In this document: positions 32,301 through 64,000 of the stretch, piece after piece
Position numbering within the stretch: the stretch's first letter is position 1
How the letters are laid out: each line of letters begins with the position of its first letter
Source: an uncultured Alphaproteobacteria bacterium
GTDB taxonomy: Bacteria > Pseudomonadota > Alphaproteobacteria > ATCC43930 > CGMCC-115725
Direction: 5' to 3'
Assembly (NCBI GenBank): GCA_963789275.1
Contig: CAWBKF010000014.1
Coordinates: 15,240-79,239 of the forward strand
Length of the DNA stretch: 64,000 nt
The notes under the pieces: generated by a model
The model's database searches: none
What the model was told of the DNA's origin: nothing
The model's input: only the letters and a program-made list of their open reading frames with translations
Program-made: the position numbers and the translations under genes

Positions 32301-34628
32301 CGTCGCCGTGCTCAGCGCGCCGATCTCGGTCGTGCTCAGGCCCTTGACCTGCGCCGTGCTCAGCGCCCCGATCTGCGCCGAGGTCAGCGCCGCCGTGTTC
32401 AGGCTCGGCAGCTGCGTCGCCGTCAGCCCGGTCAGCTGCGTCGCCGTGCTCAGCGCCTGGATCTGCGCGCTGCTCAGGCCGCCGATCTGCGTCGTCGTCA
32501 GCGCCCCGATATCCTGCGAGGTCAGCCCGGTCAGCTGCGTCGCCGCGCTGAACGCGTTGATCTGGGTCGAGGTCAGACCCTTGACCTGCGTCGTGCTCAG
32601 CGCCCCGATCTGCGCCGAGGTCAGCGCCGCCGTGTTCAGGCTCGGCAGCTGCGCCGCCGTCAGCCCGGTGACCTGCGTCGCCGTGCTCAGCGCCTGGATC
32701 TGCGCCGAGGTCAGGCCGCCGATCTGCGTCGCGTTGAGCGCGCCGATCTGCTGCGAGGTCAACCCGTCCACCTGCGTCGCCGTGGCGAGCGCGGTGATCT
32801 CCGAGGCGGTGAAGCCGGCGATCTGCGCCGTCGTCAGCGCCCCGATATCCTGCGAGGTCAGCCCGGTCAGCTGCGTCGCCGTGCTCAGCGCGCCGATCTC
32901 GGTCGTGCTCAGGCCCTTGACCTGCGCCGTGCTCAGCGCCCCGATCTGCGCCGAGGTCAGCGCCGCCGTGTTCAGGCTCGGCAGCTGCGTCGCCGTCAGC
33001 CCGGTGAGCTGCGTCGCCGTGCTCAGCGCCTGGATCTGCGCGCTGCTCAGGCCGCCGATCTGCGTCGTCGTCAGCGCCCCGATATCCTGCGAGGTCAGCC
33101 CGGTCAGCTGCGTCGCCGCGCTGAACGCGTTGATCTGGGTCGAGGTCAGCCCCTTGACCTGCGTCGTGCTCAGCGCCCCGATCTGCGCCGAGGTCAGCGC
33201 CGCCGTGTTCAGGCTCGGCAGCTGCGCCGCCGTCAGCCCGGTGACCTGCGTCGCCGTGCTCAGCGCCTGGATCTGCGCCGAGGTCAGGCCGCCGATCTGC
33301 GTCGCGTTGAGCGCGCCGATCTGCTGCGAGGTCAGCCCGTCCACCTGCGTCGCCGTGGCGAGCGCGGTGATCTCCGAGGCGGTGAAGCCGGCGATCTGCG
33401 CCGTCGTCAGCGCCCCGATATCCTGCGAGGTCAGCCCGGTCAGCTGCGTCGCCGTGCTCAGCGCGCCGATCTCGGTCGTGCTCAGGCCCTTGACCTGCGC
33501 CGTGCTCAGCGCCCCGATCTGCGCCGAGGTCAGCGCCGCCGTGTTCAGGCTCGGCAGCTGCGTCGCCGTCAGCCCGGTGAGCTGCGTCGCCGTGCTCAGC
33601 GCCTGGATCTGCGCGCTGCTCAGGCCGCCGATCTGCGTCGTCGTCAGCGCCCCGATATCCTGCGAGGTCAGCCCGGTCAGCTGCGTCGCCGCGCTGAACG
33701 CGTTGATCTGGGTCGAGGTCAGACCCTTGACCTGCGTCGTGCTCAGCGCCCCGATCTGCGCCGAGGTCAGCGCCGCCGTGTTCAGGCTCGGCAGCTGCGC
33801 CGCCGTCAGCCCGGTGACCTGCGTCGCCGTGCTCAGCGCCTGGATCTGCGCCGAGGTCAGGCCGCCGATCTGCGTCGCGTTGAGCGCGCCGATCTGCTGC
33901 GAGGTCAGCCCGTCCACCTGCGTCGCCGTGGCGAGCGCGGTGATCTCCGAGGCGGTGAAGCCGGCGATCTGCGCCGTCGTCAGCGCCCCGATATCCTGCG
34001 AGGTCAGCCCGGTCAGCTGCGTCGCCGTGCTCAGCGCGCCGATCTCGGTCGTGCTCAGGCCCTTGACCTGCGCCGTGCTCAGCGCCCCGATCTGCGCCGA
34101 GGTCAGCGCCGCCGTGTTCAGGCTCGGCAGCTGCGTCGCCGTCAGCCCGGTGAGCTGCGTCGCCGTGCTCAGCGCCTGGATCTCCGCGCTGCTCAGGCCG
34201 CCGATCGCGGTCGTCGTCAACGCCCCGATCTGCTGCGAGGTCAGCCCGGTGACCTGAGTCGTCGGGCTGAGCTCGCCAATCTCGGTCGAGGTCAGGCCTT
34301 TTGCCGCCGTCACGCTGAAGGCGCCGATCTGCGCCGAGCTGAGCCCACCGATCTGCGACGGGGTCAGGACGCTAAGCTGCGCGGCATTCAAAGTGAAGAG
34401 CTGCCAGGTGGCGAGCGAATCGATGGCGGTAGCGGTCAGCGCAGCGACATCGGTGGTGTTGAGCGCCTGGATCTGCGACGTGCTCAGCGCGTCGACTTCC
34501 GTAGCCGTGGCAGCTGCCGCCTGCGCGGCGCTGATCGACTGAATATCGGTGACGGAGAGATTCTGGATGGCTGTCGTCGACAGCGCCGCGAACTGACTCG
34601 GCGACAGCAGGGTGATAAGCGAGGTCAT
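29313..34628 (-). CDS. giant Thr/Ser-rich octapeptide-repeat protein, paralogue 2 (1771 aa, intact)
   Basis: Uninterrupted ORF with GGAG 8 nt before the ATG. From residue ~7 to the C-terminus it is built of [LF]-[ST]-x-[ST]-[QE]-[ILV]-x-x units (LTSAQIGA, LSTTEIGA, LTTTQIGG...). No signal peptide, no Cys, no non-repeat domain. Third codon positions are GC-rich on this strand. Confidence 0.85.
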   Translation of the reverse strand: MTSLITLLSPSQFAALSTTAIQNLSVTDIQSISAAQAAAATATEVDALSTSQIQALNTTDVAALTATAIDSLATWQLFTLNAAQLSVLTPSQIGGLSSAQIGAFSVTAAKGLTSTEIGELSPTTQVTGLTSQQIGALTTTAIGGLSSAEIQALSTATQLTGLTATQLPSLNTAALTSAQIGALSTAQVKGLSTTEIGALSTATQLTGLTSQDIGALTTAQIAGFTASEITALATATQVDGLTSQQIGALNATQIGGLTSAQIQALSTATQVTGLTAAQLPSLNTAALTSAQIGALSTTQVKGLTSTQINAFSAATQLTGLTSQDIGALTTTQIGGLSSAQIQALSTATQLTGLTATQLPSLNTAALTSAQIGALSTAQVKGLSTTEIGALSTATQLTGLTSQDIGALTTAQIAGFTASEITALATATQVDGLTSQQIGALNATQIGGLTSAQIQALSTATQVTGLTAAQLPSLNTAALTSAQIGALSTTQVKGLTSTQINAFSAATQLTGLTSQDIGALTTTQIGGLSSAQIQALSTATQLTGLTATQLPSLNTAALTSAQIGALSTAQVKGLSTTEIGALSTATQLTGLTSQDIGALTTAQIAGFTASEITALATATQVDGLTSQQIGALNATQIGGLTSAQIQALSTATQVTGLTAAQLPSLNTAALTSAQIGALSTTQVKGLTSTQINAFSAATQLTGLTSQDIGALTTTQIGGLSSAQIQALSTATQLTGLTATQLPSLNTAALTSAQIGALSTAQVKGLSTTEIGALSTATQLTGLTSQDIGALTTAQIAGFTASEITALATATQVDGLTSQQIGALNATQIGGLTSAQIQALSTATQVTGLTAAQLPSLNTAALTSAQIGALSTTQVKGLTSTQINAFSAATQLTGLTSQDIGALTTTQIGGLSSAQIQALSTATQLTGLTATQLPSLNTAALTSAQIGALSTAQVKGLSTTEIGALSTATQLTGLTSQDIGALTTAQIAGFTASEITALATATQVDGLTSQQIGALNATQIGGLTSAQIQALSTATQVTGLTAAQLPSLNTAALTSAQIGALSTTQVKGLTSTQINAFSAATQLTGLTSQDIGALTTTQIGGLSSAQIQALSTATQLTGLTATQLPSLNTAALTSAQIGALSTAQVKGLSTTEIGALSTATQLTGLTSQDIGALTTAQIAGFTASEITALATATQVDGLTSQQIGALNATQIGGLTSAQIQALSTATQVTGLTAAQLPSLNTAALTSAQIGALSTTQVKGLTSTQINAFSAATQLTGLTSQDIGALTTTQIGGLSSAQIQALSTATQLTGLTATQLPSLNTAALTSAQIGALSTAQVKGLSTTEIGALSTATQLTGLTSQDIGALTTAQIAGFTASEITALATATQVDGLTSQQIGALNATQIGGLTSAQIQALSTATQVTGLTAAQLPSLNTAALTSAQIGALSTTQVKGLTSTQINAFSAATQLTGLTSQDIGALTTTQIGGLSSAQIQALSTATQLTGLTATQLPSLNTAALTSAQIGALSTAQVKGLSTTEIGALSTATQLTGLTSQDIGALTTAQIAGFTASEITALATATQVDGLTSQQIGALNATQIGGLTSAQIQALSTATQVTGLTAAQLPSLNTAALTSAQIGALSTTQVKGLTSTQVNAFSAATQLTGLTSQDIGALTTTAIGGLTSAQIQSLSTATQITGLTTAEISSLSSAALNALTTAQVQALTTAQIKGLTASEITELGTAQIQSLTTTQLATFTVTQIGGFNSTQVGSLSTAQLDSLV
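29580..34250 (-). repeat. 573-bp (191-aa) tandem higher-order repeat, about 8 near-identical copies
   Basis: The marker gctgaacgcgttgatctgg recurs at 30255, 30828, 31401, 31974, 32547, 33120 and 33693, an exact 573-bp period, plus a diverged copy at about 29682. Only a few single-base differences separate the units. Confidence 0.9.
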
Positions 34629-34663
34629 CTAATCTTCTCCGCGCTCCAGATTTTCACCGATCA

Positions 34664-34703
34664 CAGAATCTCGTTAGCTATTCCAGAGTCTCGTTAGCTA
34701 TTC
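34664..34703. promoter_or_regulatory. 20-bp tandem direct repeat upstream of repeat-protein gene 2
   Basis: cagaatctcgttagctattc / cagagtctcgttagctattc, one mismatch. It lies 36-75 nt upstream of ATG 34628 in an AT-richer divergent intergenic region. The function is inferred only. Confidence 0.35.
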
Positions 34704-35063
34704 CACGCAGGGTGCGGAGATTAGGCTGTCGTCGATGAAAAAACTCCTAATTCACGCGACAAACAAACGTACTGCGCCCGCACCCGCCGCGGACCTTGCC
34801 GTGGCCGCGCGTCGCAATGGTTTCGTTATGAAAGTCAGCAGGTTACCGACGATCTCTCGAGCGCCAACGCACCGCTCGTCGCCCCTCGCCGCGCGCGTCA
34901 TCACCTTCACACGATCGCGCAAGCGAAGAAAAAACGTCGGAAAACATCGTTACTATTCTTGCGCATCGCGACTTTCTGATCGCCGCGGCATCGTGGTTAC
35001 TAATCATTAAGGCCGACGTGCCAAGCTGGACAAAGTAGAGAGCACTTCCGTGGTGGAGCGAGC

Positions 35064-35171
35064 ATGCCGATACCGGCCGCCTCAGCGCCGAACATTGAGA
35101 ACGTGATTTCCGACGTCCGCTTGCTGTCGGCGCAGGACGCCCCGACCCCGGCGCCTCCGCGAGTCGCATGA
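35064..35171 (+). CDS. possible 35-codon leader ORF coupled to the GT41 gene
   Basis: GGTGGAG lies 5 nt before ATG 35064 (MPIPAASAPNIENVISDVRLLSAQDAPTPAPPRVA). Its TGA overlaps ATG 35168 (ATGA). It could instead be the true GT41 N-terminus separated by an indel. Confidence 0.3.
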   Translation: MPIPAASAPNIENVISDVRLLSAQDAPTPAPPRVA

Positions 35172-37255
35172 CGCCGCTGGGAGCCAGCGCCGCCGAAGTG
35201 ATAGAGCTGCTGCCCGACCGGGCTGCGGGGCGGACGGAAACCATCTTGCCGGCGGTCTTCACTGCGGCCGTGGCGAAAGCGTCAGCGCAGGCGCTCGAGC
35301 CGGGCGACTTGATCACCGCGACCCAGGCGCTCGCCAGCGCCAAACAACCGGCGCTCGTCCAGCAACTCTACAAAAGCTGGCTCGCTCACAACCCGGACCA
35401 TCCGTCGCGACATGTGATCTTGTTCAACTATGGCGTCACGCTCTCCGATGCCGGCGATCTCGCCGCTGCCCGCGACACCTTCCTCGAGGCGATCGCACTT
35501 CAAAAGGATTTCCTGCCGCCCTGCATCAATGTGGGAGTGGTGCTGGAACGGATGGGGGCGACCGACCAGGCGATTGTCCAGTGGTATCACGTGGCGAACG
35601 CCGTCGTTCCCGTCGACGGCAACGCCATCGGCTACAAGACGGTGGCGTTGAAGCAGATCGCGCGAGTGCTCGAGACCGCACGCTACGAGGCGCAAGCCGA
35701 GGATGCGCTGCGGCTGAGCCTGGAGATAAATCCTCATCAGCGGGAGCCGATCCAGCACTGGATCTTCCTGCGCCAGGGCCAGTGCAAGTGGCCGGTGCTG
35801 ACGCCCTGGGCGAACGTGACCCGCCCCCTGCTGATGGAGAGCTTCTATCCCTTGTCGCTGGCCTATTACGCCGATGATCCGCTGTTCCAGCTGGGCACCG
35901 CCAATCAGTACAGCAAGCTCGACGTCGGCAGGCCCGCCATCGCCACTGTCGGCAGCTGGCCGGCACCCCTCCCCACGCAGCAGCGGCGGCTGCGCGTCGG
36001 CTATCTCTCGTCGGATCTGCGCGCCCATGCCGTGGGCTTCCTGACCAGCGAAATGTTCGAGCTCCACGACCGCAAGCAGGTCGAGGTTTTCGCCTATTAC
36101 TGCGGCATCCGGGCCGAGGATGAGACCAAGGCAAGGATCCGACAGGCGGTCGATCACTGGGTCGACATCAACGATCTCAGCGATCACCAGGCCGCGCGCC
36201 GGATCGTCGAGGACGGGATCGACATCCTGGTGGACCTCAACGGCTATTCGAAGGATGCGCGCTCGAAGGTCTTCGCGCTGCGTCCGGCGCCGATCATCGT
36301 CAACTGGCTGGGCTATCCCGGCACGATGGGCAGCCCCTATCACCACTACATCATCGCCGACGACTACATCATCCCGCGCGGCCACGAAATCTACTATTCG
36401 GAAAAGGTGCTGCGGCTGCCCTGCTACCAGCCGAACGACCGCAAGCGCGTCATCGCCGCCGCGCGGCCAACGCGCCGCGAAGCCGGGCTGCCGGAAGAGG
36501 GCACGGTCTATTGCTCCTTCAACGCTACGCAGAAAATCACGCCTGCGGTCTTCGCCCACTGGATGACGATCCTGTCGCGCGTCCCGGACAGCGTGCTGTG
36601 GTTCCTCGCCGGGGCCGCGGACACGGAGGAGCGGCTGCGGCAACTGGCGACGCCGCTCGGCATCGCGCCGGAGAGGCTGATCTTTGCCGCGCGGGCGCCA
36701 AATCCCGAGCACATGGCGCGCTTCGCGCTGGCCGACGTGCTGCTGGATACTTGGCCCTACGGCTCGCACACCACGGCCTCCGACGCGCTGTGGCTGGGCG
36801 TGCCCGTGCTGACGGTCTCCGGCCGCGGTTTCGCGTCGCGCGTCTGCGGCAGCCTCCTCCACGCCGCCGGGCTGGGCGAGCTGGTCTGCAACAGCTTCGA
36901 TGAGTATGTCGAGCGGGCGGTGACGCTCGGCCGCGACAAAGCCGCGCTAAGGAACTACAAGGACCGGCTGATCGCGAACCGCGACGGTTGCACGCTCTTC
37001 GACACGAACTTGCTGGTGCGCAAGCTCGAGGCGCTCTTCGCCCGGATGTGGGAGGATTACTGCCGCGGCGAATTGCCGGTGCCGACGCTGACCAATCTCG
37101 AGCTCTACCACGAGATCGGCACCCAGGAAGACATCGAGTCCTCGGGCGCGCTGTCGTCCGTCGACTATCACGATCGTTATCGCCGGGCCCTCGCCTACCG
37201 CGACAGCCTTTCGCGGCTGCCGGCCGATGGCCGGCTGTGGCCGGGCGGCGGTTGA
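35168..37255 (+). CDS. TPR-containing GT41-family glycosyltransferase (OGT/SPINDLY/HMW1C-like)
   Basis: 695 aa. The N-terminal third is TPR-like (YKSWLAHNPDHPSRHVILFNYGVTLSDAGDLAAARDTFLEAIAL...). The C-terminal part matches the COG3914/GT41 pattern as I recall it: RVGYLSSDLRAHAVGFL, VNWLGYPGTMGSPYHHYIIAD, LPCYQPND, VYCSFNATQKITP, DTWPYGSHTTASDALWLGVPVLT. Confidence 0.8.
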   Translation: MTPLGASAAEVIELLPDRAAGRTETILPAVFTAAVAKASAQALEPGDLITATQALASAKQPALVQQLYKSWLAHNPDHPSRHVILFNYGVTLSDAGDLAAARDTFLEAIALQKDFLPPCINVGVVLERMGATDQAIVQWYHVANAVVPVDGNAIGYKTVALKQIARVLETARYEAQAEDALRLSLEINPHQREPIQHWIFLRQGQCKWPVLTPWANVTRPLLMESFYPLSLAYYADDPLFQLGTANQYSKLDVGRPAIATVGSWPAPLPTQQRRLRVGYLSSDLRAHAVGFLTSEMFELHDRKQVEVFAYYCGIRAEDETKARIRQAVDHWVDINDLSDHQAARRIVEDGIDILVDLNGYSKDARSKVFALRPAPIIVNWLGYPGTMGSPYHHYIIADDYIIPRGHEIYYSEKVLRLPCYQPNDRKRVIAAARPTRREAGLPEEGTVYCSFNATQKITPAVFAHWMTILSRVPDSVLWFLAGAADTEERLRQLATPLGIAPERLIFAARAPNPEHMARFALADVLLDTWPYGSHTTASDALWLGVPVLTVSGRGFASRVCGSLLHAAGLGELVCNSFDEYVERAVTLGRDKAALRNYKDRLIANRDGCTLFDTNLLVRKLEALFARMWEDYCRGELPVPTLTNLELYHEIGTQEDIESSGALSSVDYHDRYRRALAYRDSLSRLPADGRLWPGGG

Positions 37256-37275
37256 GCGCGCCGCAGTCGTGATCG

Positions 37276-38016
37276 CTAGCGCTTGACGACCGTACGGCAG
37301 GAGTAGTCGACGCGGTTGAGCTTCACCGCGATGCCGTGCTTGGCAAAATAGGCATCCACCGCTTCTCTCTGGCCCTTGTAGTGACCGTAATCGTCGATGA
37401 CGAGCACGCCGCCGCGCGAGAGCGGCGGCCAGAATACCTCCATCGAGATCTGCGCGCTCGGAAACCAGTCGGTATCGAGCCGCACGATGGCAAAAGCTGG
37501 CGCGGTTGGCGCACGCGCCGTCTCCTCTACCATGCCCTTGACCAATTTCACCGGGCCGCGGTAACCGGTCGATGCCATGTTGGCAGCCACTTCCTCGACG
37601 CCGACCCGCCCCCACTCCGTGGTCCCATCGGCCTTCACATTGGCCTGCCAGTCATCGATCGCGCGGCGGCCCCAGAGATCGACCTCGTTTTCGGAAGGCA
37701 TCGGATGGCCTTCGAAGGTATCGTAGAGCCAGAGCCCCCGAGAGGTGTCGCCGAGCATCTGCAGCGTCTTGGCGACAAGCATCATCGAGCCGCCGCGCCA
37801 CACGCCGCACTCGACGATGTCGCCGGGCACACCCGCTCTGACGATGTATTCGACCGACTTGTAGAGATCGAACATCCTCTCCACGGAGGTCATCGTGAAG
37901 GAGCGCACCGCGTTGAAGATCGGCGCGAAGTCGCGGTCCATATCGGCATAGCCGGCGACCCGATCCTGCCGTTGCATCAGGTCCTGATAGTCGATCATGA
38001 AGGGCGTTCCATCCAC
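37276..38016 (-). CDS. TylF/MycF-family SAM-dependent O-methyltransferase
   Basis: 246 aa. GDIVECGVWRGGS ... LYDTFEG ... VRLDTDWFPS ... GGVLVIDDYGHYKG is the macrocin-O-methyltransferase family signature. Confidence 0.8.
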   Translation of the reverse strand: MDGTPFMIDYQDLMQRQDRVAGYADMDRDFAPIFNAVRSFTMTSVERMFDLYKSVEYIVRAGVPGDIVECGVWRGGSMMLVAKTLQMLGDTSRGLWLYDTFEGHPMPSENEVDLWGRRAIDDWQANVKADGTTEWGRVGVEEVAANMASTGYRGPVKLVKGMVEETARAPTAPAFAIVRLDTDWFPSAQISMEVFWPPLSRGGVLVIDDYGHYKGQREAVDAYFAKHGIAVKLNRVDYSCRTVVKR

Positions 38017-38070
38017 AGAACTTGATTGTCAACGGCTTGGGATAGCAGTGCTACGGACCCCCTCCCGTTG

Positions 38071-38982
38071 TCACGCCGCGGCCTGGGGGGCCTGCATCGA
38101 CTCCTGGATGGCTTGAATCTCCGCCTGCATGACGGCCGCCATCTGTAGCGCCTGCGCCTTCAAGCGCTCGTAGCGGGCATCAGGCGCGCCGGCGCCGATC
38201 CTCTGTTCGTATTGCGCGTAATCGCTGCTGCGCAGCACGCCGTTGACATAGAGCGAGCGACCCTCGACCAGCGGGTAGTGGCGCAGCAGCATCTCTTTGC
38301 GCCAAGGCGGATCGAGAAATTCCGGCGAGCGGATGATGTCAAAGGCGCAACGGCGGCGGACGATCTGTCCGAGGTCGTAGAAATCGGCCCAGAAGGCCAG
38401 CTCGCGGAGCTCCTGCGTGCCGGGACGGCGGCTGGTGTCGATATGGACATCGGCGAATGAGATGCGGTCGATTAGGCGCACGATGTCGTCCAGCCAGTGA
38501 TCGATGAACCAGTAGGGGAAATAGGGCGGATAGATGAAGCCCATCTTCTTGGCGAGACCATGCGTGATCCCGTTGATCTGCGGGAAGGACGCATTGGCGA
38601 GGTGGTTGTAGACGACGCCGATGTTGTCGGGGAAACGCGCCGCCGCCTCGAGGATCTTGGCGTCGAACCCCGGCGTGATGTGCGGCCCGTAATCCACCAT
38701 GGCGAGATAGACGTCCGCCGGCACCTGGAGCGCGCGATTGTATTTCCCGCCGAGCGAATCCTCGCGTTGCGCGACGACCGGCCGCAAGCGGCGGTCGACG
38801 GGCAAGTGCGGCAGAGCGTCGATCGTCTTCTGGTCGTCGTGATCGACCGAGATCATGAAGATCGTGGTCGGCAGCACGATATTGGGCAGCGTCTCTTGGA
38901 CCGTGCGGAGGAGCAATTCGGGGCGCCCGCGCGTGCACAGGTTGATGGTCAGCGTCAGGTCGCTCACGTGTTCACCCCTCAC
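38071..38982 (-). CDS. hypothetical protein, possibly GT-A-like glycosyltransferase
   Basis: 303 aa. The N-terminus (TLTINLCTRGRPELLLRTVQETL...IFMISVDHDDQKT) looks like a GT2-type Rossmann start with an acidic DxD-like motif. I recognise no firm family. Confidence 0.45.
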   Translation of the reverse strand: MRGEHVSDLTLTINLCTRGRPELLLRTVQETLPNIVLPTTIFMISVDHDDQKTIDALPHLPVDRRLRPVVAQREDSLGGKYNRALQVPADVYLAMVDYGPHITPGFDAKILEAAARFPDNIGVVYNHLANASFPQINGITHGLAKKMGFIYPPYFPYWFIDHWLDDIVRLIDRISFADVHIDTSRRPGTQELRELAFWADFYDLGQIVRRRCAFDIIRSPEFLDPPWRKEMLLRHYPLVEGRSLYVNGVLRSSDYAQYEQRIGAGAPDARYERLKAQALQMAAVMQAEIQAIQESMQAPQAAA

Positions 38983-39166
38983 CGATTGCTAGAAATAGAC
39001 GGCGCCTATCTCCGTTCAGCACCCCGCCGGGCGGCCGCAGCCGTCGCAAAGGTGCGAAACCTTGGGGTGATTGTGGTCGGAGATGGCTAATATTCGATTA
39101 AAAGGCGGGAGATCGGGCCTCACGCGCCAAGGGCCCGGCCATCACCGGCCGAGCCCTCGAAGGAAG

Positions 39167-39242
39167 TGGTGGAGCAGAGGGGGATCGAACCCCTGACCTC
39201 GACATTGCGAACGTCGCGCTCTCCCAACTGAGCTACTGCCCC
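39167..39242 (-). tRNA. tRNA-Ala (anticodon CGC)
   Basis: The reverse complement GGGGCAGTAGCTCAGTTGGGAGAGCGCGACGTTCGCAATGTCGAGGTCAGGGGTTCGATCCCCCTCTGCTCCACCA folds as a cloverleaf. It has the G3:U70 identity pair, anticodon loop TTCGCAA and an encoded CCA. Confidence 0.9.
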
Positions 39243-39365
39243 GCGACGGGCGGCGACTATTGGGCGGGCGGCGGGTGCTGTCAAGGCTCGCGGGCGCCGG
39301 CCTTGCGCCACCGGCGCCGCGCGGCTAGCTTACCGCCGCTTCGCGAGGGGGTTCAGGACGCGCTC

Positions 39366-39671
39366 ATGGGCGGTTTCCTGGTTCCGGTCATCGACGTCGT
39401 CGTCGTGCTGCTGCACCTTTATTGGTGGATCGTCATCATCTCGGCGGTGATGAGCTGGCTCGTCGCCTTCAACGTCATCAACACCCACAGCCGGCCCGTC
39501 GCCATGATCGGCGATTTCCTCTACCGCGCCACCGAGCCGGCGCTCAGACCGCTGCGCCAGTTCCTGCCCAATCTCGGCGGCCTCGACATCTCGCCGATCA
39601 TCCTGCTGCTGATCCTGTGGTTCATCGAGCGCGAACTGATACAGCTGGAGTTCTACGTCGCGCAGCTCTAG
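39366..39671 (+). CDS. yggT: YggT-family membrane protein
   Basis: [39 protein letters not shown]...[18 protein letters not shown]. Start ATG 39366 lies inside track ORF 39303..39671. Confidence 0.8.
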
Positions 39672-57406: not shown

Positions 57407-57686
57407 AGCTGTCAGCATCGATCAGCTGTCAGCTATCAGCTGTCAGCTAGAGGGGGGGGCGAAGACGGAACCATCACTGTCGCCGCCGCGAAAGCGGGGG
57501 CCTAGAAGCAACCGCACGTCGGTCGCCCTGGGTCCCTGCTTTCGCAGGGAAAGCGTAGATGGTCTAGCGCGGCTGATAGCTGATAGCTGATAGCTGATAG
57601 CTGATAGCTGATAGCTGATAGCTGACAGCTGATAGCTGACAGCTGATAGCTGACAGCTGATAGCTGACAGCTGATAGCTGACAGCT
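57407..57686. repeat. composite element E2: heptamer arrays (about 6 units left, about 16.7 units right) flanking the same three-hairpin core, inverted relative to E1
   Basis: Left array 57407-57450. Right array 57570-57686 is cggctga, then (tagctga)x7, then alternating cagctga/tagctga. The reverse complement of the core aligns with the 54463-54606 core by eye. It occupies most of the tsaD-hemC divergent intergenic region. Confidence 0.85.
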
Positions 57687-59401: not shown

Positions 59402-60480
59402 CGGAGCACCAGGGCGATGCCGGGCCGGAGCCCGCGCCGGAATGGATCCGGCAGGGGCCGCAGACCATCGAGGCGCCGCCGGCCGCCGCGGCGCCGAAGC
59501 GGCGGCGCGGCCGGCGGCTCGGGACAGCGCTGATCCTCATCGTGCTGGTGGCGGCGGCGGTGGCGAGCGCGCCCTATTGGACGAGCCTGCTGCCTTGGGC
59601 TTCGCCGGGCGAGCCGAACCAGACGACGGCGGCGCTCGAGCGGATCGACCAGCGGCTCGGCGATCTTAGGGAGCGCGAGACGGCGCTGGAGCAGCGGCTT
59701 TCCGGGGTCGAGCACCAGCTCGCGAGCCAAGCCTCGTCGGGCGCGGCACAAGAGCAGGCGGCGGCGCTGCGCCAGCTTGCCGATCGCCTTTCCGCGCTGG
59801 AGCAGCGCGCGCCGCCGTCGCCCGACACGGCGCCGCTCGCCGATCTCACGGACACCACGAGCAAGCTCAATGCCGGCCTGGCGGAGCTCGGGGCGCGGCT
59901 CGACAAGCTCGAGGCGCACAACGCCGAGGCCGCCGGCGGTCGCGGCGACGCTTCGCTGCTGCTGGCGCTGGGACAGCTGCGCGGCGCGCTCGACAGCGGC
60001 CGGCCCTATGCCGGCGAGCTCGCGACGGTGAAGATGCTGGCGCAAAGCCGGCCGGAGCTGGCGCCGCCGCTCGCGGCGCTGGCGGGAAATGCTACGAGCG
60101 GCATCGCCAGCCTGCCGGCGCTGACGCAGCGCTTCACGCAGGAGGTGGCGCCCGCCTTGCTGCGCGCGCCGGCGCCGCCGGAGAGCGAGGGCATCGCCGA
60201 CCGGGTCATGGCGCGGCTGCGCTCGCTGGTCGTGATCCACCGCATCGGCGACAAGGCCGATCCCGTCGAGAGCGCGGTGGAGCGCGCCGAGGCGGCGCTC
60301 GAGCGCAACGACCTAGCATCCGCCATCGCGGCGCTGGAGATGCTGCCGCCGCGCGATGCCGCACTCGCCGATGACTGGCTTGCCGCGGCACGCCAGCGCG
60401 TCGCCGCGAGCCAAGCGCTCGACCGGCTCGATGCCGGCATCGGCGACAAACTCACCGCGCCGGCCGCGGCGGCGCAGTGA
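59398..60480 (+). CDS. COG4223/mitofilin (Mic60)-like membrane protein
   Basis: ATGA overlap with the hemD stop. One TM (LGTALILIVLVAAAVASAPYW), a coiled-coil-like Ala/Leu/Gln/Glu-rich middle, and a C-terminal mitofilin-like region (...RLRSLVVIHRIGD...AVERAEAALERNDLASAIAALEMLP...WLAAARQRVAASQAL). Confidence 0.6.
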   Translation: MTEHQGDAGPEPAPEWIRQGPQTIEAPPAAAAPKRRRGRRLGTALILIVLVAAAVASAPYWTSLLPWASPGEPNQTTAALERIDQRLGDLRERETALEQRLSGVEHQLASQASSGAAQEQAAALRQLADRLSALEQRAPPSPDTAPLADLTDTTSKLNAGLAELGARLDKLEAHNAEAAGGRGDASLLLALGQLRGALDSGRPYAGELATVKMLAQSRPELAPPLAALAGNATSGIASLPALTQRFTQEVAPALLRAPAPPESEGIADRVMARLRSLVVIHRIGDKADPVESAVERAEAALERNDLASAIAALEMLPPRDAALADDWLAAARQRVAASQALDRLDAGIGDKLTAPAAAAQ

Positions 60481-61896
60481 TGCGCACGCTTCCCGCCATC
60501 ATCGTCATCGCCGCGCTGGTCGCGGGCGCGGCCTATCTCGCCGCCGAGCCCGGCAGCGTCGTGCTCACCTGGCAAGGCCGGCACATCTACACCAGCGTCG
60601 CGCGGCTCGCGCTCGGCATCGTGCTGCTCGCCATGCTGGCGGCGGCGCTCTTCCATCTGCTGCGGAAGCTCCTGGGCGGCCCCCGCGCGTTCATGCGCGG
60701 GCGGCGCGAGAAGCGGCGGCGCGAGGGCTATCGCGCGCTGACCCAGGGCATGGTGGCGGTGGCGGCGGGCGATGCCGAGGAGGCGCAGAAATTCGCGCGC
60801 AAGGCCGATGTGCTGCTGGCGGAGCCGCCGCTGACCTTGCTGCTCTCGGCGCAGGCGGCGCAGCTCAGCGGCGACGAGCAGGCGGCGGCGCGGTATTTCA
60901 CCGCGATGCTGGAGCGGGCGGAGACCGAGTTCCTGGGCCTGCGCGGCCTCGTCATGCAGGCGCTGCGCGGCGGCGACGAGCGCGCGGCGCTGGGCCTCGT
61001 CGAGCGCGCGCGCCGCCTCCGGCCGCGCACGCCCTGGGTGGTGACGAGCCTCTTCGAGCTGCAGGCGCGCGCCGGCAAATGGTACGAGGCGGAACAGACG
61101 CTCATCGAGGGGGTGAAGCGGAAGGCGCTGCCCGAAGCGGCGACGCACCATCACCGCACGGTGCTGCTGCATGAGCGCAGCCGCGCCGCGGAAGCCGAAG
61201 GCGCGCAGCCGCAGGCGCTGCAGCTCGCGGCGAAGGCGCATGGCGCGGAGCTGGGGTTTGCGCCGGGCGCGGTGCATTACGCGACGCTGCTGCGCGTCGG
61301 CGGCCGCACCAAGCATGCGGCGCGCGCGCTCGAGGCGTCGTGGCGCGTCGCACCCCATCCCGACATCGCCGCAGGCCTGGGCCGCGCTCTTCGCCGAGGC
61401 GACGCCGGTCGAGCGGATGAAGCAAACCGACCGGCTCGCCGCCGCCAATCCCGACCATGCCGAGAGCCGGCTCGCGCAAGCGCGGGCGGCGCTCGACGCG
61501 CGGCTCTGGGGCGAGGCGCGCCGCCATCTCGAAGCGCTGGGTGCGAAGCTCGGCGAGGGCGCGGCGCCGTTGAGCCCGCGGGTCTGCCGGATGATGGCCG
61601 AACTCGAAGAGGCGCAGCACGAGAACATGCCCGCGGCGCGGGCGTGGCTCGGGCGGGCGGCGACGACGACGGCGCTCGATCCCGCCTGGCTCTGCGGCGC
61701 CTGCGGCGCGGAGAATGCCGGCTGGAGCGCGGTCTGCCCGCATTGCCGCGCCTTTGCCAGCCTCGCCTGGCGGATGCCCGGCGGCAGCGCGCGGCTGCTG
61801 CCGGCGCAAGCGAGCCTGATGCCGCCGGTGGCGGTGCCGGCGCCGTGGCCCGCCGCCGAGACGACGATCCTGCCGCCGGCGGCGAAGACGGGGTAG
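60477..61896 (+). pseudogene. hemY: HemY-like TPR membrane protein, frame disruption at about 61370
   Basis: MMRTLPAIIVIAALVAGAAYL...LTQGMVAVAAGDAEEAQKFARKA... up to ...RVAPHPDIA. Then QAWAALFAEATPVERMKQTDRLAAANPDHAESRLAQARAAL...WLCGACGAENAGWSAVCPHC continues in track ORF 61171..61896. The start is GTG 60477 or ATG 60480. Confidence 0.75.
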
Positions 61897-61957
61897 CGCG
61901 CGGCGCGGTTGACGCCCGGCGACGGCCGGCTGTAAGGTCCGCCGCCCGCAGGGGTAA

Positions 61958-62032
<75 letters not shown>

Positions 62033-62189
62033 GCGTAAAGTTTCTGCTGACGCTGGACTATTCGAAGGTCGGGACGCGGTTGGGCGCAACCGTGGCAGGT
62101 GTGCACCCACGAAGCTTTGGCTCGACAGGCCATAGGCCTTTCACTAGTTTTGAGGTCCCCTCATTAGCTGTTTCCGATCGGAAGTCGGT

Positions 62190-64000
62190 ATGGCCACGAA
62201 CGCCTTTGTCGCCTACCCCTCTAGCCCCGCAGACTTAGTGGCCGCCATTCGGGCGGCGGTTGGGCTTGCGAATAAAGCTTGGGGCGACGATGCGGTCCAT
62301 GGCTGGGAGGAGAACCTTGTCGCGAGTCGGTTTGTGACCGATCCGATTTTTTCCGAGATCCAGCGGCGTGAATTGTTGATCGCCGATATTACTGTTGTCA
62401 ATTTCAACGTGACTTACGAGATCGGGTATGCAATCGGACAGCGCAAATCTTTCCGGCTCATCATCAACGGATCGCTACAAGGCGACGAGAAGCTGCGCCG
62501 CGATATCGGGATTTTCACTACCCTCGGATTCCAGCGGTACGCCAACCACGACGAGCTCTACGACATTATCCTCGCTGCGGAGCATCTCACCCCGCTCAAT
62601 GTCGATTTCCCACTCAACAAGCTGGCTCCGATCTATTACCTGGGAACCTCGAACCAGAGCGGAGCCTTGCTGCACATTTATGCGCGCCTGAAAAAGACGA
62701 AGTATCGGCTACGTGAGTTCAATCCGCATGAGCAACCGTGGCTAAATGCCAGCGAGGCCATTGAGCATGTCGCCTCGTCTGCCGCTGTGGTCGTGCCTTT
62801 GCTGTCAGAGCACCAGATAGGCTGGCAGGTCCACAATATTCGAGCGGCGTTTGTGATCGGTTTGGCGCACGGCTTGGGTGTCCGGTGCCTCGCCTTGCAG
62901 TCGGCCGACGGGCCGGTTCCGTTGGACGTGCGGGACGCGGTCAAAACTTACCGTAGCAACCAGCAGATCGAGGAGCATATCGCTGACGTGCTTCCGGCGA
63001 TAGTTGAAAAGGTGTACGGCGACATTGCGCCCATCATCCTCTCGCAGGATATACTGAGCAGAACCGACATCGGCGAGGCGATGGCAGAAAATGAGACTGG
63101 AACGCTGCGCAATTATTTTTTGCAGACCTCTGAGTATCAAAGCGTCCTCAGAGGTAATGTTCGTCTCGTGTTGGGACGGAAGGGCTCGGGCAAGACGGCT
63201 CTCTTTATGCAGGCCCGCGATCGTTGGAAGCCGGGCAAAGCCAATGTCGTTGTTGACCTAGCACCGGAAAATTACAGACTGTTAAAACTACGAGATGCCG
63301 TAACGGCTTATTTAGCAGAAGGATCGCGGGAAGAGCTGCTTACGGCGATGTGGGAGTATCTACTGCTCCTTGAAATTGTTAGTAAAATTATCGATGAAGA
63401 TTACGAACTGCATCTCCGCGACCACGAGCTTGTGGGTCCATACCAGGACTTAGCCCGTCAGTATAAGGATGGCGATTACGCGGAAGGCGCCGATTTTTCA
63501 GAGCGGCTCGTCAACCTAATTGATCGACTGGTTGAGCGATATGAAAATCGCTACGGCACCTCTGCCCAACGGCAGCTGTCATCCAAGCAGGTTCTTGAGC
63601 TTCTGTACGAGCATGACATGAAGGCACTCCGAGGTGCGCTGAGCAATTACTTAGAACATAAAGATGTCGTCGTCGTGCTGTTCGACAACCTCGATAAGGG
63701 CTGGGCGAGCCAAGGACTTAAACCAGAAGATGTGGTCATAATCCGCGCGCTGGTTAGCGCCAGCGATCGAGTTGTCAAATACCTACAGCGAGCGGGGGAC
63801 GAGGCATTCGTCACAATCTTCCTTCGCAATGACGTTTACGAGTTTCTGGTCGATCTCACGCCGGATCGAGGCAAACACTCAAATGTGTCAATCGACTGGC
63901 GCGATACTCAGCAACTGAAACTCATGGTGCGGAATCGTCTGCAGGCGAGCAAAATTGCTGAAGCAAAAGAGTTTGAGACCCTCTGGCATCTCATCTGTGA
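62190..64000 (+). CDS. two TIR/nucleoside-2-deoxyribosyltransferase-like modules fused to a P-loop NTPase (3' end beyond the window)
   Basis: My own translation from ATG 62190 gives 603 codons with no stop: MATNAFVAYPSSPADLVAAIRAAV...ELLIADITVVNFNVTYEIGYAIGQRKSFRLII (module 1), PIYYLGTSNQSG...AAVVVPLLSEHQIGWQVHNIRAAFVIGLAHGLGVRCLAL (module 2), Walker A LVLGRKGSGKTALF (residues 326-339), Walker-B-like VVVVLFDNLDKGW (493-505). It is missing from the ORF track because no stop occurs before the edge, and it lies in the AT-richer region next to tRNA-Thr. Confidence 0.75.
   Translation, partial: MATNAFVAYPSSPADLVAAIRAAVGLANKAWGDDAVHGWEENLVASRFVTDPIFSEIQRRELLIADITVVNFNVTYEIGYAIGQRKSFRLIINGSLQGDEKLRRDIGIFTTLGFQRYANHDELYDIILAAEHLTPLNVDFPLNKLAPIYYLGTSNQSGALLHIYARLKKTKYRLREFNPHEQPWLNASEAIEHVASSAAVVVPLLSEHQIGWQVHNIRAAFVIGLAHGLGVRCLALQSADGPVPLDVRDAVKTYRSNQQIEEHIADVLPAIVEKVYGDIAPIILSQDILSRTDIGEAMAENETGTLRNYFLQTSEYQSVLRGNVRLVLGRKGSGKTALFMQARDRWKPGKANVVVDLAPENYRLLKLRDAVTAYLAEGSREELLTAMWEYLLLLEIVSKIIDEDYELHLRDHELVGPYQDLARQYKDGDYAEGADFSERLVNLIDRLVERYENRYGTSAQRQLSSKQVLELLYEHDMKALRGALSNYLEHKDVVVVLFDNLDKGWASQGLKPEDVVIIRALVSASDRVVKYLQRAGDEAFVTIFLRNDVYEFLVDLTPDRGKHSNVSIDWRDTQQLKLMVRNRLQASKIAEAKEFETLWHLIC

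What the first reader, a model, noticed from the sequence alone, without database searches (positions are those of the whole stretch)
62033..64000. Abrupt drop in GC after tRNA-Thr; first island gene is a tandem TIR/NDT-like plus P-loop NTPase fusion missing from the ORF track
Immediately after the CCA end of tRNA-Thr(CGU), the sequence changes from the very GC-rich host style to a visibly AT-richer one. This is the classic signature of an island integrated at a tRNA 3' end.

An unbroken ORF of more than 603 codons starts at 62190. I translated it by hand because the track omits ORFs without an in-window stop.

- Residues ~5-95 and ~147-237 each show the flavodoxin-like pattern shared by bacterial TIR-like and nucleoside 2-deoxyribosyltransferase-like domains. 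That pattern is a beta-strand start (FVAYP / IYYLG), then a later hydrophobic strand followed by an acidic or polar residue and a G-rich helix cap (ADITVVNFNVTYEIGYAIGQRK / VVPLLSEHQIGWQVHNIRAAFVIGLAHGLG).
- Walker A is GRKGSGKT (nt 63174-63197).
- A Walker-B-like VVVVLFDNLD lies about 165 residues later, a long A-to-B spacing as in KAP-like or Sll1717-like ATPases.

Fusions of nucleotide-processing or NADase-type effector domains to NTPase sensors are typical of anti-phage defence proteins.

No integrase is visible in the 2 kb available.
Basis: partly seen in the sequence, partly recalled or inferred. Interest (0 to 1): 0.8.

Follow-up and report, generated by a model that had tools for sequence, protein, structure and literature searches.

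The report
tRNA-linked islet with candidate defence gene
Right after a threonine tRNA gene, the GC-rich chromosome gives way to a small, AT-richer foreign insert whose first gene encodes a widespread, untested single-protein candidate antiviral system: a nucleotide-cleaving-type domain fused to an ATPase switch of a family with one experimentally proven anti-phage member.

Summary
tRNA-Thr(CGU) lies at 61958-62032. GC falls from about 0.75 to about 0.54 straight after it. An ORF opens at 62190 and runs off the window (603 codons; 774 aa in full).

The protein has three parts:
- D1 (aa 1-140) is an NDT/DNPH1/TIR-like domain. E77 aligns with the DNPH1 catalytic Glu and is kept in 206 of 207 relatives.
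- D2 (aa 141-293) is a second α/β domain of the same topology. It has no catalytic Glu and no detectable homology.
- The rest (aa 294-767) is a "P-loop ATPase, Sll1717 family" module (NCBIfam, 287 bits against a cutoff of 75) with a Cdc6/Orc1-like fold.

The validated E. coli anti-phage protein DS-41 also passes that family's cutoff. Relatives add SIR2, caspase, CHAT, PNP or phosphoesterase domains in front of D1, and three of five of these lose the D1 Glu. The gene has no conserved neighbour. It is AT-richer than its flanks in 70 of 72 genomes and occurs on plasmids and inside prophages.

In a 98%-identical contig the insert is 6.75 kb, has no integrase and carries two IS3 copies. It is bounded by a 415-bp direct repeat that contains a second tRNA-Thr.

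Verdict: a real islet carrying a probable ATPase-gated N-glycosidase defence protein, a new variant of a known kind. Its function is inferred, not shown.

The parts
61620..62034 (+). Left copy of a 415-bp direct repeat (3' end of the hemY-like gene plus the whole tRNA-Thr). It brackets the islet in the 98%-identical contig L081.
   Evidence: Window 61620-62034 matches L081 16596-17009 at 96% as well as its orthologous position. The repeat finder families D1 and D2 in L081. Three-way alignment shows homology ending 2 nt after the CCA end and starting at the IS3 end. The right copy lies outside the window.
61958..62032 (+). tRNA-Thr(CGU). Its 3' end marks the left boundary of the islet.
   Evidence: ARAGORN. 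Rfam tRNA scores 74 bits on the identical copy in L081. There is only one copy of its 3' 25 nt in the window.
62033..62189 (+). 157-bp leader between the tRNA and the ORF, where the composition shift begins. GGAAG lies 5-9 nt before the ATG.
   Evidence: Sequence. GC profile. No sigma-70 consensus promoter or terminator found.
62190..64000 (+). First 603 of 774 codons of the D1-D2-Sll1717-ATPase protein. The ORF runs off the window.
   Evidence: Translation. It is 100% identical to the 774-aa P0001. AlphaFold model mean pLDDT is 83.5.
62190..62609 (+). D1 (aa 1-140): NDT/DNPH1/TIR-like domain and putative N-glycosidase effector. Invariant E77 is at nt 62418-62420, within the motif NFNVTYEIGYAIG.
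   Evidence: Profile against PDB sequences hits DNPH1 at E=4e-5 with E77 on the GYELG Glu, and ThsB1/DUF1863 at E=0.05. Foldseek hits DNPH1 (TM up to 0.63), NDT 7o62 and the SARM1 TIR domain, plus viral NDTs. PADLOC TIR effector E=3e-4. PF05014 gives weak hits in 19 of 34 homologues. E77 is kept in 206 of 207 basal relatives.
62610..63068 (+). D2 (aa 141-293): second five-stranded alpha/beta domain plus a long linker helix. It has no Glu at the E77-equivalent position. Its own invariant polar set is E181, H215, N216, R218, D246, R248 and D249. Its role is unknown (pseudo-dimer partner or ligand site).
   Evidence: Same strand-helix order as D1 in both models, with N-terminal pTM 0.85. hhalign of D1 against D2 aligns only the equivalent motif, probability 7%. 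No PDB or Pfam sequence hit. It is more conserved than D1 (58% against 49% column identity) and is retained in all architectural variants.
63069..64000 (+). N-terminal two thirds of the Sll1717-family P-loop ATPase module (aa 294-603 of 294-767). It includes the invariant AENE motif (nt 63084-63095), Walker A GRKGSGKT (63174-63197, K335), an all-helical insertion (aa 361-488, nt 63270-63653) and Walker B VVVVLFDNLD (63666-63695).
   Evidence: NF047389 scores 195 bits on the window part and 287 bits on the full length, against a cutoff of 75. Invariant columns. Foldseek hits Cdc6/Orc1, TnsC, RuvB, Avs5 and RPP1. Weak Pfam hits to AAA_16, AAA_22 and ATPase_2.

Best explanation
The last 2 kb of the window is the start of a small, horizontally acquired islet. 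In a 98%-identical strain it is about 6.75 kb long and sits immediately after tRNA-Thr(CGU).

Its first gene encodes a stand-alone, 774-aa candidate anti-phage (conflict) protein. The proposed mechanism is as follows.
1. The C-terminal Sll1717-family P-loop ATPase has a Cdc6/Orc1-like AAA+ core with a 130-aa helical insertion, a lid and a winged helix. It acts as the infection-sensing switch.
2. On triggering, ATP-dependent conformational change or oligomerisation activates the N-terminal D1 domain.
3. D1 is an NDT/DNPH1/TIR-like N-glycosidase that uses E77 as its catalytic residue. It is probably packed against the degenerate D2 domain as an intramolecular pseudo-dimer.
4. D1 then cleaves the N-glycosidic bond of NAD+ or another nucleotide, which starves the phage or arrests the cell.

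Shown here: the tRNA boundary, the compositional break, the domain folds, family membership, the invariant Glu and Walker motifs, the modular variants, the mobile distribution, and the repeat-bounded structure in the near-identical contig.

Inferred: defence function, the trigger, oligomerisation, the substrate, and the route of insertion.
For: **Islet**
- tRNA position and GC break.
- In L081 (98% identity) the low-GC segment runs from the tRNA to a second hemY'-tRNA-Thr copy. The 415-bp direct repeat is 96-99% identical, and groES/groEL follow.

**ATPase family**
- NF047389 scores 287 bits (E=2e-85) over aa 294-767.
- Walker A, Walker B and sensor residues are invariant in 34 homologues.
- Foldseek returns Cdc6/Orc1 at E=4e-5, plus TnsC, RuvB, Avs5 and RPP1.
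- The validated single-gene defence protein DS-41 (PMC13092281) scores 92 bits against the same family model, whose cutoff is 75. It aligns collinearly with this family.

**D1 as effector**
- DNPH1 profile hit at E=4e-5 with the Glu aligned.
- Structural hits to DNPH1, NDT and the SARM1 TIR domain.
- E77 is kept in 206 of 207 basal proteins. It is replaced by I, A or Q in three of five variants that carry an extra SIR2, caspase or PNP domain.

**Conflict-system signature**
- The added domains are known immune effectors: SIR2_2, EACC1-type caspase, CHAT, PNP_UDP_1, and a DS-8/DS-9-like phosphoesterase.
- No conserved neighbour in 80 loci.
- The gene is AT-richer than its flanks in 70 of 72 loci, with a median of -9 GC points.
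- It is present on 15 plasmids at full length.
- It lies inside prophage structural modules.

**Precedent**
- NDT-like and TIR-like NADase effectors are already known in defence: Retron-Eco1 (PMC13276650) and the DUF4062 system Swarozyc (10.64898/2026.05.01.722283).
Against: - No experiment addresses this protein or any D1-D2-bearing member.
- PADLOC v2 has no model for it. The only hit is a weak, partial TIR match.
- D1 does not reach any Pfam threshold in this protein.
- D1 lacks the DNPH1 general acid: D80 aligns with I53.
- D1 and D2 are retained even when another effector is added, and D2 is more conserved than D1. They may therefore have a non-effector role.
- DS-41 defends without any such N-terminal domain.
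- Immediate neighbours are mostly ordinary genes. Only a few are RM or integrase genes, so defence-island enrichment is weak.
- No integrase is present in the islet, and no island-free allele of the same species was found.
Confidence: 0.6

Rival explanations
1. It is the same defence protein, but D1-D2 is not the killing effector. Instead it is a nucleotide- or ligand-binding regulatory or assembly module, for example sensing a nucleotide pool change or a phage product. The output is executed by the Sll1717 ATPase and winged-helix part itself, as must be the case for DS-41, or by appended domains where present.
For: - DS-41 (502 aa) belongs to the same ATPase family and protects without any N-terminal enzymatic domain.
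- D1-D2 is retained in variants that carry SIR2, caspase, CHAT, PNP or a phosphoesterase.
- D2 is more conserved than D1 and has its own invariant polar residues.
- D1 lacks the DNPH1 general acid.
Against: - The Glu that is catalytic in DNPH1, NDT and TIR enzymes is kept in 206 of 207 basal proteins. It is lost only where another effector is present. This pattern is what a redundant catalytic effector would show.
- W39 is lost in the same three variants.
Confidence: 0.2
2. This rival concerns the route of insertion. The islet was not placed by a tRNA-targeting integrase. It entered by homologous (Campbell-type) recombination of a circular DNA that carried a hemY'-tRNA-Thr segment, or by IS3-mediated rearrangement. 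On this view the tRNA adjacency reflects the homology segment rather than an att site.
For: - The direct repeat is 415 bp, covering the whole tRNA plus 340 bp of hemY. That is far longer than a typical att core.
- Its inner edge abuts an IS3 end within 5 bp.
- The 6.75 kb contain no tyrosine or serine recombinase, only two identical IS3 copies with rve DDE transposases.
- Only 4 of 60 homologous loci have a tRNA within about 2 kb of the gene.
Against: - The outer repeat boundary falls 2 nt after the CCA end, as with integrase-made junctions.
- An integrase could have been lost, or displaced by the IS copies.
- Two other contigs carry phage-type integrases downstream of the identical tRNA-Thr.
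- In L027 a family member sits 220 bp after a tRNA-Asn.
Confidence: 0.4
3. It is not an immune gene. It is a housekeeping or niche-specific nucleotide-salvage or signalling ATPase that happens to be AT-rich and mobile.
For: - DNPH1 and NDT relatives are metabolic enzymes.
- Many neighbours are ordinary metabolic or regulatory genes.
- There is no PADLOC system hit.
Against: - Distribution is patchy across many phyla with no synteny.
- The gene is carried on prophages and plasmids.
- SIR2, caspase, CHAT and PNP domains are stacked on the same core in relatives.
- It shares ATPase family membership with a validated anti-phage protein.
Confidence: 0.07

Closest known systems
DS-41 (AAA2, WP_033812887.1), a single-gene E. 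coli anti-phage system from DefensePredictor (Science 2026, PMC13092281)
   Same: - It belongs to the same NCBIfam subfamily. DS-41 scores 92 bits on NF047389, whose cutoff is 75.
- It shares the AENE motif before the P-loop, Walker A GxxGxGKS/T, Walker B hhhhDxLD, and the W..L and PR.L motifs in the same order.
- It is a single-gene system.
   Different: - DS-41 is 502 aa and has no D1-D2 module.
- Identity is about 20%.
- This protein scores only 41 bits on the DS-41 equivalog model, whose cutoff is 370.
- The DS-41 mechanism is not described in the text I read.
Avs/AVAST and other bacterial NLR-like STAND proteins with TIR or SIR2 effectors (for example EfAvs5, PDB 9jap)
   Same: - A single polypeptide with an N-terminal enzymatic effector followed by an NTPase switch.
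- Effector domains are exchanged among relatives.
- Foldseek lists Avs5 and the plant NLR RPP1 among the ATPase matches.
   Different: - No PADLOC Avs or NACHT model matches.
- The best fold matches are Cdc6/Orc1-type AAA+ proteins.
- There is no C-terminal TPR, WD40 or LRR-type sensor array; the protein ends in a lid and a winged helix.
- A 130-aa helical insertion lies between Walker A and Walker B.
- Extra effectors are added in front of D1-D2 rather than replacing it.
DNPH1/Rcl and nucleoside 2-deoxyribosyltransferases (Pfam PF05014)
   Same: - Same fold (Foldseek probability up to 1.0, TM up to 0.63).
- The motif VADIT..NFNVTYEIG aligns with VAEVTQPSLGVGYELG, which places E77 on the DNPH1 nucleophile Glu104 (residue numbering from my own knowledge of the human sequence).
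   Different: - It is below Pfam thresholds.
- The DNPH1 general acid D80 aligns with I53.
- There is no GSIRGG-type phosphate loop after strand 1 (by inspection).
- It is fused to D2 and an ATPase instead of forming a free homodimer.
NDT-like effector of Retron-Eco1/Ec86, and TIR-like NADases (ThsB; the DUF4062 system Swarozyc)
   Same: - These are NDT/TIR-like Glu enzymes used as abortive-infection effectors that deplete NAD+ (PMC13276650; 10.64898/2026.05.01.722283).
- ThsB1 and DUF1863 appear as weak profile hits at E=0.05.
   Different: - They are controlled by RT-msDNA filaments, by partner proteins or by the phage portal, not by a fused Sll1717 ATPase.
- No Pfam DUF4062 or DUF1863 hit was found here.
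- The substrate of D1 is unknown.
KAP P-loop NTPases
   Same: Long spacing between Walker A and Walker B, and a hhhhDxLD-type Walker B.
   Different: - KAP_NTPase is not among the Pfam hits at E<=1.
- The insertion (aa 361-488) is charged and helical, with no transmembrane-like stretch (by inspection).

Membership tests
NCBIfam NF047389 'P-loop ATPase, Sll1717 family' | HMM score at or above the curated cutoff (75 bits), with end-to-end coverage of the 454-position model | tested here: met
   The window part scores 195.3 bits over aa 294-601, model positions 1-292. The full-length P0001 scores 287.4 bits over aa 294-767, model positions 1-452 of 454.
NCBIfam NF047389 'P-loop ATPase, Sll1717 family' | Intact Walker A (GxxGxGKT) and Walker B acidic residues | tested here: met
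   G329, R330, K331, G332, G334, K335, D499, N500 and D502 are invariant in 34 homologues.
DS-41 anti-phage protein (NF053860 equivalog) | Score at or above 370 bits on the equivalog model | tested here: not met
   41.2 bits, confined to aa 298-370. It is a relative within the wider Sll1717 family, not an equivalog.
Nucleoside 2-deoxyribosyltransferase / DNPH1 superfamily (PF05014) | Pfam model hit at the gathering threshold | tested here: not met
   No PF05014 hit for this protein at E<=1. There are weak hits (best 2.9e-6) in 19 of 34 homologues.
Nucleoside 2-deoxyribosyltransferase / DNPH1 superfamily (PF05014) | Flavodoxin-like alpha/beta fold superposable on solved members | tested here: met
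   Foldseek hits DNPH1 (probability 1.0, TM 0.54-0.63) and NDT 7o62 (TM 0.52), plus viral NDTs (TM 0.43-0.54).
Nucleoside 2-deoxyribosyltransferase / DNPH1 superfamily (PF05014) | Catalytic Glu nucleophile in the (G)YE(L/I)G motif | tested here: met
   E77 aligns with the Glu of GYELG in DNPH1. It is kept in 206 of 207 basal relatives.
Nucleoside 2-deoxyribosyltransferase / DNPH1 superfamily (PF05014) | General-acid Asp (DNPH1 D80) and a 5'-phosphate-binding loop | tested here: not met
   D80 aligns with I53. No GSIRGG-like loop follows strand 1 (sequence).
TIR domain NADases (TIR_2, ThsB/DUF1863, CAP12-type) | Profile match to a TIR family model | tested here: inconclusive
   PADLOC TIR effector E=3e-4 over 43 residues. 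TIR_2 hits 1 of 34 homologues. ThsB1 and DUF1863 E=0.05. SARM1 TIR TM 0.49-0.53.
TIR domain NADases (TIR_2, ThsB/DUF1863, CAP12-type) | NAD+ cleavage activity dependent on the conserved Glu and on oligomerisation | not testable with these tools
   This needs enzyme assays.
STAND / NLR-like immune NTPases (Avs, NACHT, NB-ARC) | Match to NACHT, NB-ARC or Avs models, and a C-terminal repeat sensor | tested here: not met
   There are only sub-threshold hits to AAA_16, ATPase_2 and nSTAND_NTPase5 and no PADLOC Avs or NACHT hit. The model ends in a lid and winged helix with no repeats. The fold is nearest to Cdc6/Orc1.
KAP P-loop NTPases | PF07693 match and a transmembrane insertion in the P-loop domain | tested here: not met
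   PF07693 is not among the Pfam hits at E<=1. The insertion at aa 361-488 is predicted to be soluble helices.
tRNA-linked genomic island | Starts at the 3' end of a tRNA gene with a compositional break | tested here: met
   The boundary lies 2 nt after the CCA end.
tRNA-linked genomic island | Direct repeat of the tRNA 3' part at the far end | tested here: met
   Seen in L081 (98% identical to the window, not the window itself). A second complete tRNA-Thr lies within a 415-bp repeat, 7.16 kb downstream.
tRNA-linked genomic island | Integrase gene of the element | tested here: not met
   L081 has no tyrosine or serine recombinase between the repeats, only two IS3 copies (HTH_Tnp_1 plus rve).
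tRNA-linked genomic island | Empty site in close relatives | tested here: inconclusive
   The junction pattern gave no hit. The 67 contigs with the same tRNA show conserved hemY-tRNA linkage but come from other taxa, with varied downstream genes.
Known defence systems in PADLOC-DB v2.0.0 | Significant match to a system protein model | tested here: not met
   There are only two weak partial hits (TIR effector 3e-4, AbiEi 2e-3).

The most novel reading that the evidence does not exclude
Sll1717-type ATPases would be a distinct, widespread lineage of single-protein immune switches. They would be Cdc6/Orc1-like rather than STAND or KAP, and their ancestral output would be an intramolecular D1-D2 pseudo-dimer. 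In that pseudo-dimer, D1 is a new kind of N-glycosidase and the highly conserved, Glu-less D2 is a ligand-sensing or gating half-site. The substrate might not be NAD+. By analogy with DNPH1 it could be a (modified) deoxynucleotide such as hmdUMP. The winged helix would sense phage DNA or replication intermediates. Later members stacked SIR2, caspase, CHAT, PNP or phosphoesterase domains on this scaffold and let D1 decay.
Probability: 0.25. Interest if true: 0.7.

Novelty: new variant of a known kind. Interest (0 to 1): 0.55.

Why it matters
**Scale.** The D1-D2-ATPase architecture is common. A capped search gave more than 1,100 clusters at 90% identity. The ATPase module alone gave 1,329 clusters at 50% identity. 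Members span Proteobacteria, Acidobacteriota, Bacteroidota, Cyanobacteria, Verrucomicrobiota, CPR, plasmids and prophages. Public annotation calls them only 'hypothetical' or 'Sll1717 family'.

**New links made here.** This work connects the family to a validated anti-phage protein (DS-41). It also shows an evolutionary pattern in which the catalytic Glu is lost once another effector is appended.

**What this enables.** It gives a concrete, testable mechanism and a short list of point mutants. If the mechanism is confirmed, it would add an NDT/TIR-like effector controlled by a Cdc6/Orc1-like ATPase to the catalogue of nucleotide-depleting immune systems. It would also help annotate thousands of genes.

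**For this genome.** The finding marks a small IS-ridden islet next to tRNA-Thr, not a large integrative element.

Tried and rejected
- **Source contig.** An exact look-up of the full protein P0001 found no contig on record. The genome-contig scan returned only relatives at 41% identity or less, so the source genome is not among the species representatives. Cluster member P0121 gave the 98%-identical contigs that I used instead.
- **Empty site.** A junction pattern joining the tRNA end to the groES-side flank found nothing in metagenome contigs. A scan with the 3' half of the tRNA gave 67 contigs from other taxa, none with groES or the gene downstream.
- **Literature.** 'Sll1717' occurs in no searchable paper.
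- **D2 homology.** There was no PDB sequence hit and no Pfam hit, even at E<=1, in 28 members. hhalign against D1 gave a probability of only 7%. I therefore do not call D2 a TIR/NDT domain.
- **Two-domain fold matches.** Foldseek hits of the N-terminal pair to GT-B glycosyltransferases, EngA and periplasmic binding proteins have TM below 0.3 and rmsd above 14 Å. I treat them as generic tandem-Rossmannoid resemblance and reject them as homology.
- **Conserved partner gene.** None was found. The largest neighbour cluster covers 7 of 80 loci at varying distance and orientation.
- **KAP and AbiEi.** KAP membership is rejected because there is no Pfam hit and no transmembrane insertion. The PADLOC AbiEi hit (2e-3 over the P-loop) is dismissed as generic P-loop similarity.
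- **Promoter or terminator in the leader.** None was found by consensus scan.
- **hhalign of the family against single-sequence DS-41.** The probability was low (9%) although the alignment was collinear. The relationship rests instead on the NCBIfam scores and on an HMM comparison (E=1.1e-5 for one target).


Full report
**1. Observation**

ARAGORN places tRNA-Thr(CGT) at 61958-62032 on the + strand. In 300-nt windows, GC is 0.74-0.80 between 58 and 62 kb and drops to 0.49-0.61 from 62.0 kb to the window end. The last 2-kb bin (0.544) is the lowest of the 32 bins, which otherwise range from 0.63 to 0.76.

Translation from the ATG at 62190 gives 603 codons without a stop. The ORF listing omits the ORF only because it runs off the end. 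The one error is that the Walker A lysine is K335, not K334.

**2. The whole gene and its family**

A database search returns a 774-aa protein (P0001) that is 100% identical over the 603 residues. It also returns more than 1,100 homologue clusters, mostly 765-790 aa long and 40-45% identical. An alignment of 34 of them has 57% mean column identity, and the invariant residues fall in three blocks.

NCBIfam assigns aa 294-767 to NF047389, 'P-loop ATPase, Sll1717 family'. The full-length score is 287 bits (E=2e-85) and the window part scores 195 bits, against a cutoff of 75. Pfam gives only sub-threshold AAA_16, AAA_22 and ATPase_2 hits. PADLOC v2 has no model for the protein. 'Sll1717' occurs in no searchable paper.

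**3. Structure**

The full-length AlphaFold model has mean pLDDT 83.5. Its C-terminal half is closest to Cdc6/Orc1 (E=4e-5). TnsC, RuvB, the SIR2-STAND protein Avs5 and the plant NLR RPP1 rank further down. This describes an AAA+/STAND-like core, lid and winged helix. A 130-residue all-helical insertion lies between Walker A and Walker B, and there is no C-terminal repeat array.

The N-terminal 293 residues, modelled alone (pLDDT 85, pTM 0.85), form two five-stranded α/β domains with the same strand-helix order.

**4. D1 (aa 1-140)**

- A profile of D1 hits DNPH1/Rcl among PDB sequences at E=4e-5. The motif VADIT..NFNVTYEIG aligns with VAEVTQPSLGVGYELG, so E77 falls on the DNPH1 nucleophile. 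ThsB1 and DUF1863 follow at E=0.05.
- Foldseek gives DNPH1 (probability 1.0, TM up to 0.63), a bacterial NDT (TM 0.52) and the SARM1 TIR domain (TM about 0.5). It also gives viral NDTs.
- PF05014 is weakly hit in 19 of 34 homologues.
- The DNPH1 general acid D80 is not conserved; it aligns with I53.

D1 is therefore an NDT/TIR-like domain with the catalytic Glu. It is not a bona fide DNPH1 or NDT.

**5. D2 (aa 141-293)**

D2 has no PDB or Pfam sequence match. hhalign aligns it with D1 only at the equivalent strand-helix motif (probability 7%), and the E77 position is hydrophobic there. D2 is nevertheless more conserved than D1 (58% against 49% column identity). It has its own invariant polar residues: E181, H215, N216, R218, D246, R248 and D249.

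'Tandem TIR/NDT-like' is thus shown for D1 and is only plausible for D2. Because NDT and DNPH1 enzymes are obligate dimers (my own knowledge), I infer that D1-D2 is an intramolecular pseudo-dimer with one active site. This is not tested.

**6. Link to a validated system**

The NCBIfam model for DS-41 weakly hits the region around the P-loop. DS-41 (AAA2, WP_033812887.1, 502 aa) is a single-gene system shown to protect E. coli in the DefensePredictor study (PMC13092281).

The 399 residues of DS-41 recoverable from the supplement score 92 bits on the Sll1717 family model, above its cutoff of 75. They also align collinearly with this family across the AENE motif, Walker A, Walker B, and the W..L and PR.L motifs. 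The ATPase module here therefore belongs to a family with an experimentally validated anti-phage member. It is not a DS-41 equivalog (41 bits against 370).

**7. Modular variants**

An exhaustive search with aa 294-603 finds 1,329 clusters at 50% identity. Most have the ATPase starting near residue 295. Five long representatives (1,047-1,147 aa) carry an extra N-terminal domain:
- SIR2_2;
- caspase (NCBIfam 'EACC1-associated type');
- CHAT;
- PNP_UDP_1;
- a metallophosphatase resembling the DS-8 and DS-9 anti-phage phosphoesterases.

All five still contain D1 and D2. In three of them (SIR2, caspase, PNP) the E77-equivalent is I, A or Q, and W39 is also lost. By contrast, 206 of 207 proteins with the basal architecture keep Glu.

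This is the pattern expected if D1 is the catalytic output in the basal form and becomes dispensable once another effector is attached. It also shows that D1-D2 has a retained structural or regulatory role. The sample of extended variants is small.

**8. Genomic behaviour**

- In 80 loci from species-representative genomes of many phyla, no neighbouring gene is conserved. The largest neighbour cluster covers 7 of 80 loci at variable position.
- The 143 immediate neighbours hit 147 Pfam families. The most recurrent family occurs in only three. They include a few type IIG RM enzymes, PIN, ResIII and integrase genes among ordinary genes.
- The gene is AT-richer than its flanks in 70 of 72 loci, with a median of -9.2 GC points. 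The GC drop seen in the window is therefore a family trait.
- Full-length members occur on 15 plasmids and on about ten IMG/VR contigs.
- In L157 the gene lies between head-tail adaptor and major head genes. In L153 it lies just after the tail fibre J gene. These are moron-like positions.
- tRNA adjacency is occasional. L027 has a tRNA-Asn 220 bp upstream, and L048 has a tRNA-Gln just downstream.

**9. The islet beyond the window**

Contig L081 is 98% identical to window 53.8-64.0 kb. Reading along it, the order is:
1. hemC-hemD-hemX-hemY;
2. tRNA-Thr;
3. the 774-aa gene;
4. an IS3-family element (1,447 bp);
5. 986 bp with an unannotatable 177-aa ORF;
6. an identical IS3 copy in inverted orientation;
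7. five bases later, a 415-bp copy of the hemY 3' end plus a complete second tRNA-Thr (96-99% identical to the first);
8. a tRNA-like remnant;
9. groES-groEL.

The low-GC or foreign segment is therefore about 6.75 kb and is bracketed by direct repeats that contain the tRNA. Its outer boundary lies 2 nt after the CCA end. It contains no tyrosine or serine recombinase.

Two origins are consistent with this. One is a decayed integrase-made island. The other is Campbell-type homologous or IS-assisted insertion of a circle carrying a hemY'-tRNA-Thr segment. I cannot decide between them. The hemY-tRNA-Thr linkage is conserved in about 25 metagenomic contigs from related taxa, with varied downstream genes and two integrases. 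No island-free allele of the same species was found.

**10. Mechanism, with likelihoods**

The most likely reading (about 0.6) is a stand-alone immune protein. The Sll1717 ATPase and winged helix sense infection and, through ATP-dependent rearrangement or oligomerisation, switch on D1. D1 uses E77 to cleave the N-glycosidic bond of NAD+ or another nucleotide.

The main rival (about 0.2) keeps the defence role but makes D1-D2 a regulatory or ligand-binding module. Its support is that DS-41 works without D1-D2 and that D1-D2 is retained alongside added effectors. A non-immune role is unlikely (about 0.07).

The folds, motifs, family membership, modularity, mobility and islet structure are shown. 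The trigger, oligomerisation, substrate and phenotype are inferred.

**11. Novelty and score**

The gene is annotated but uncharacterised. The architecture belongs to the known kind 'enzymatic effector fused to an NTPase switch'. It differs in three ways:
- the ATPase lineage is Cdc6/Orc1-like Sll1717 rather than NACHT, NB-ARC or Avs;
- it has a tandem D1-D2 module;
- effectors are stacked rather than swapped.

I rate it a new variant of a known kind, with interest 0.55.

Noticed in passing
window 61354-61373 (hemY-like gene, 60480-61896): Relative to the intact 471-aa gene in the 98%-identical contig L081, the window copy switches reading frame near 61354-61373 (tblastn gives two segments in frames 3 and 1). 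This could be a real frameshift or an assembly error.
   Followed up: partly
window 57476-57655, against L081 3818-5466: The tsaD/hemC intergenic region is 180 bp in the window. In L081 it is replaced by about 1.65 kb carrying a DDE_Tnp_1 transposase. L082 has yet another IS (Transposase_20) nearby. The IS content therefore differs between near-identical strains.
   Followed up: partly
L081 17120-17174: A tRNA-like remnant (Rfam tRNA 27.3 bits, just under the gathering score of 29, model positions 10-63) lies 113 bp after the second tRNA-Thr copy and before groES. It may be the scar of an earlier element.
   Followed up: no
window 34500-39500, next to tRNA-Ala(CGC) at 39167-39242 (-): A 5-kb stretch has GC 0.57-0.66, against 0.70-0.73 on both sides, and ends at a tRNA-Ala gene. 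It may be a second tRNA-linked insert.
   Followed up: no
L081 12711-14157 and 15144-16590: Two 100%-identical IS3-family copies (HTH_Tnp_1 plus rve) lie in inverted orientation. They flank 986 bp that hold a 177-aa ORF with no Pfam hit, in a composite-transposon-like arrangement. A short repeat family (GGGGTCAGAG...) sits at their ends.
   Followed up: partly
L157 5986-8334 and L153 5965-8313 (IMG/VR contigs): Family members sit inside phage structural gene clusters. In L157 the gene is between head-tail adaptor and major head genes. In L153 it is just after tail fibre J. In both it is AT-richer than the phage.
   Followed up: partly
Enterobacterial plasmids (for example NZ_CP136050.1 88038-89240; CP057556.1 4605-5543): About 200 Klebsiella, Escherichia, Enterobacter and Citrobacter plasmids encode distant ATPase-only relatives. 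They are 21-23% identical over aa 274-689 and are annotated as 'hypothetical' or 'ATP-binding protein'. Their relation to DS-41 was not examined.
   Followed up: no
L081 16596-17009 against window 61620-62034 and L081 9430-9845: At several polymorphic sites the right-hand repeat copy agrees with the window's left copy rather than with L081's own left copy. This suggests gene conversion between copies or recombination among strains.
   Followed up: no
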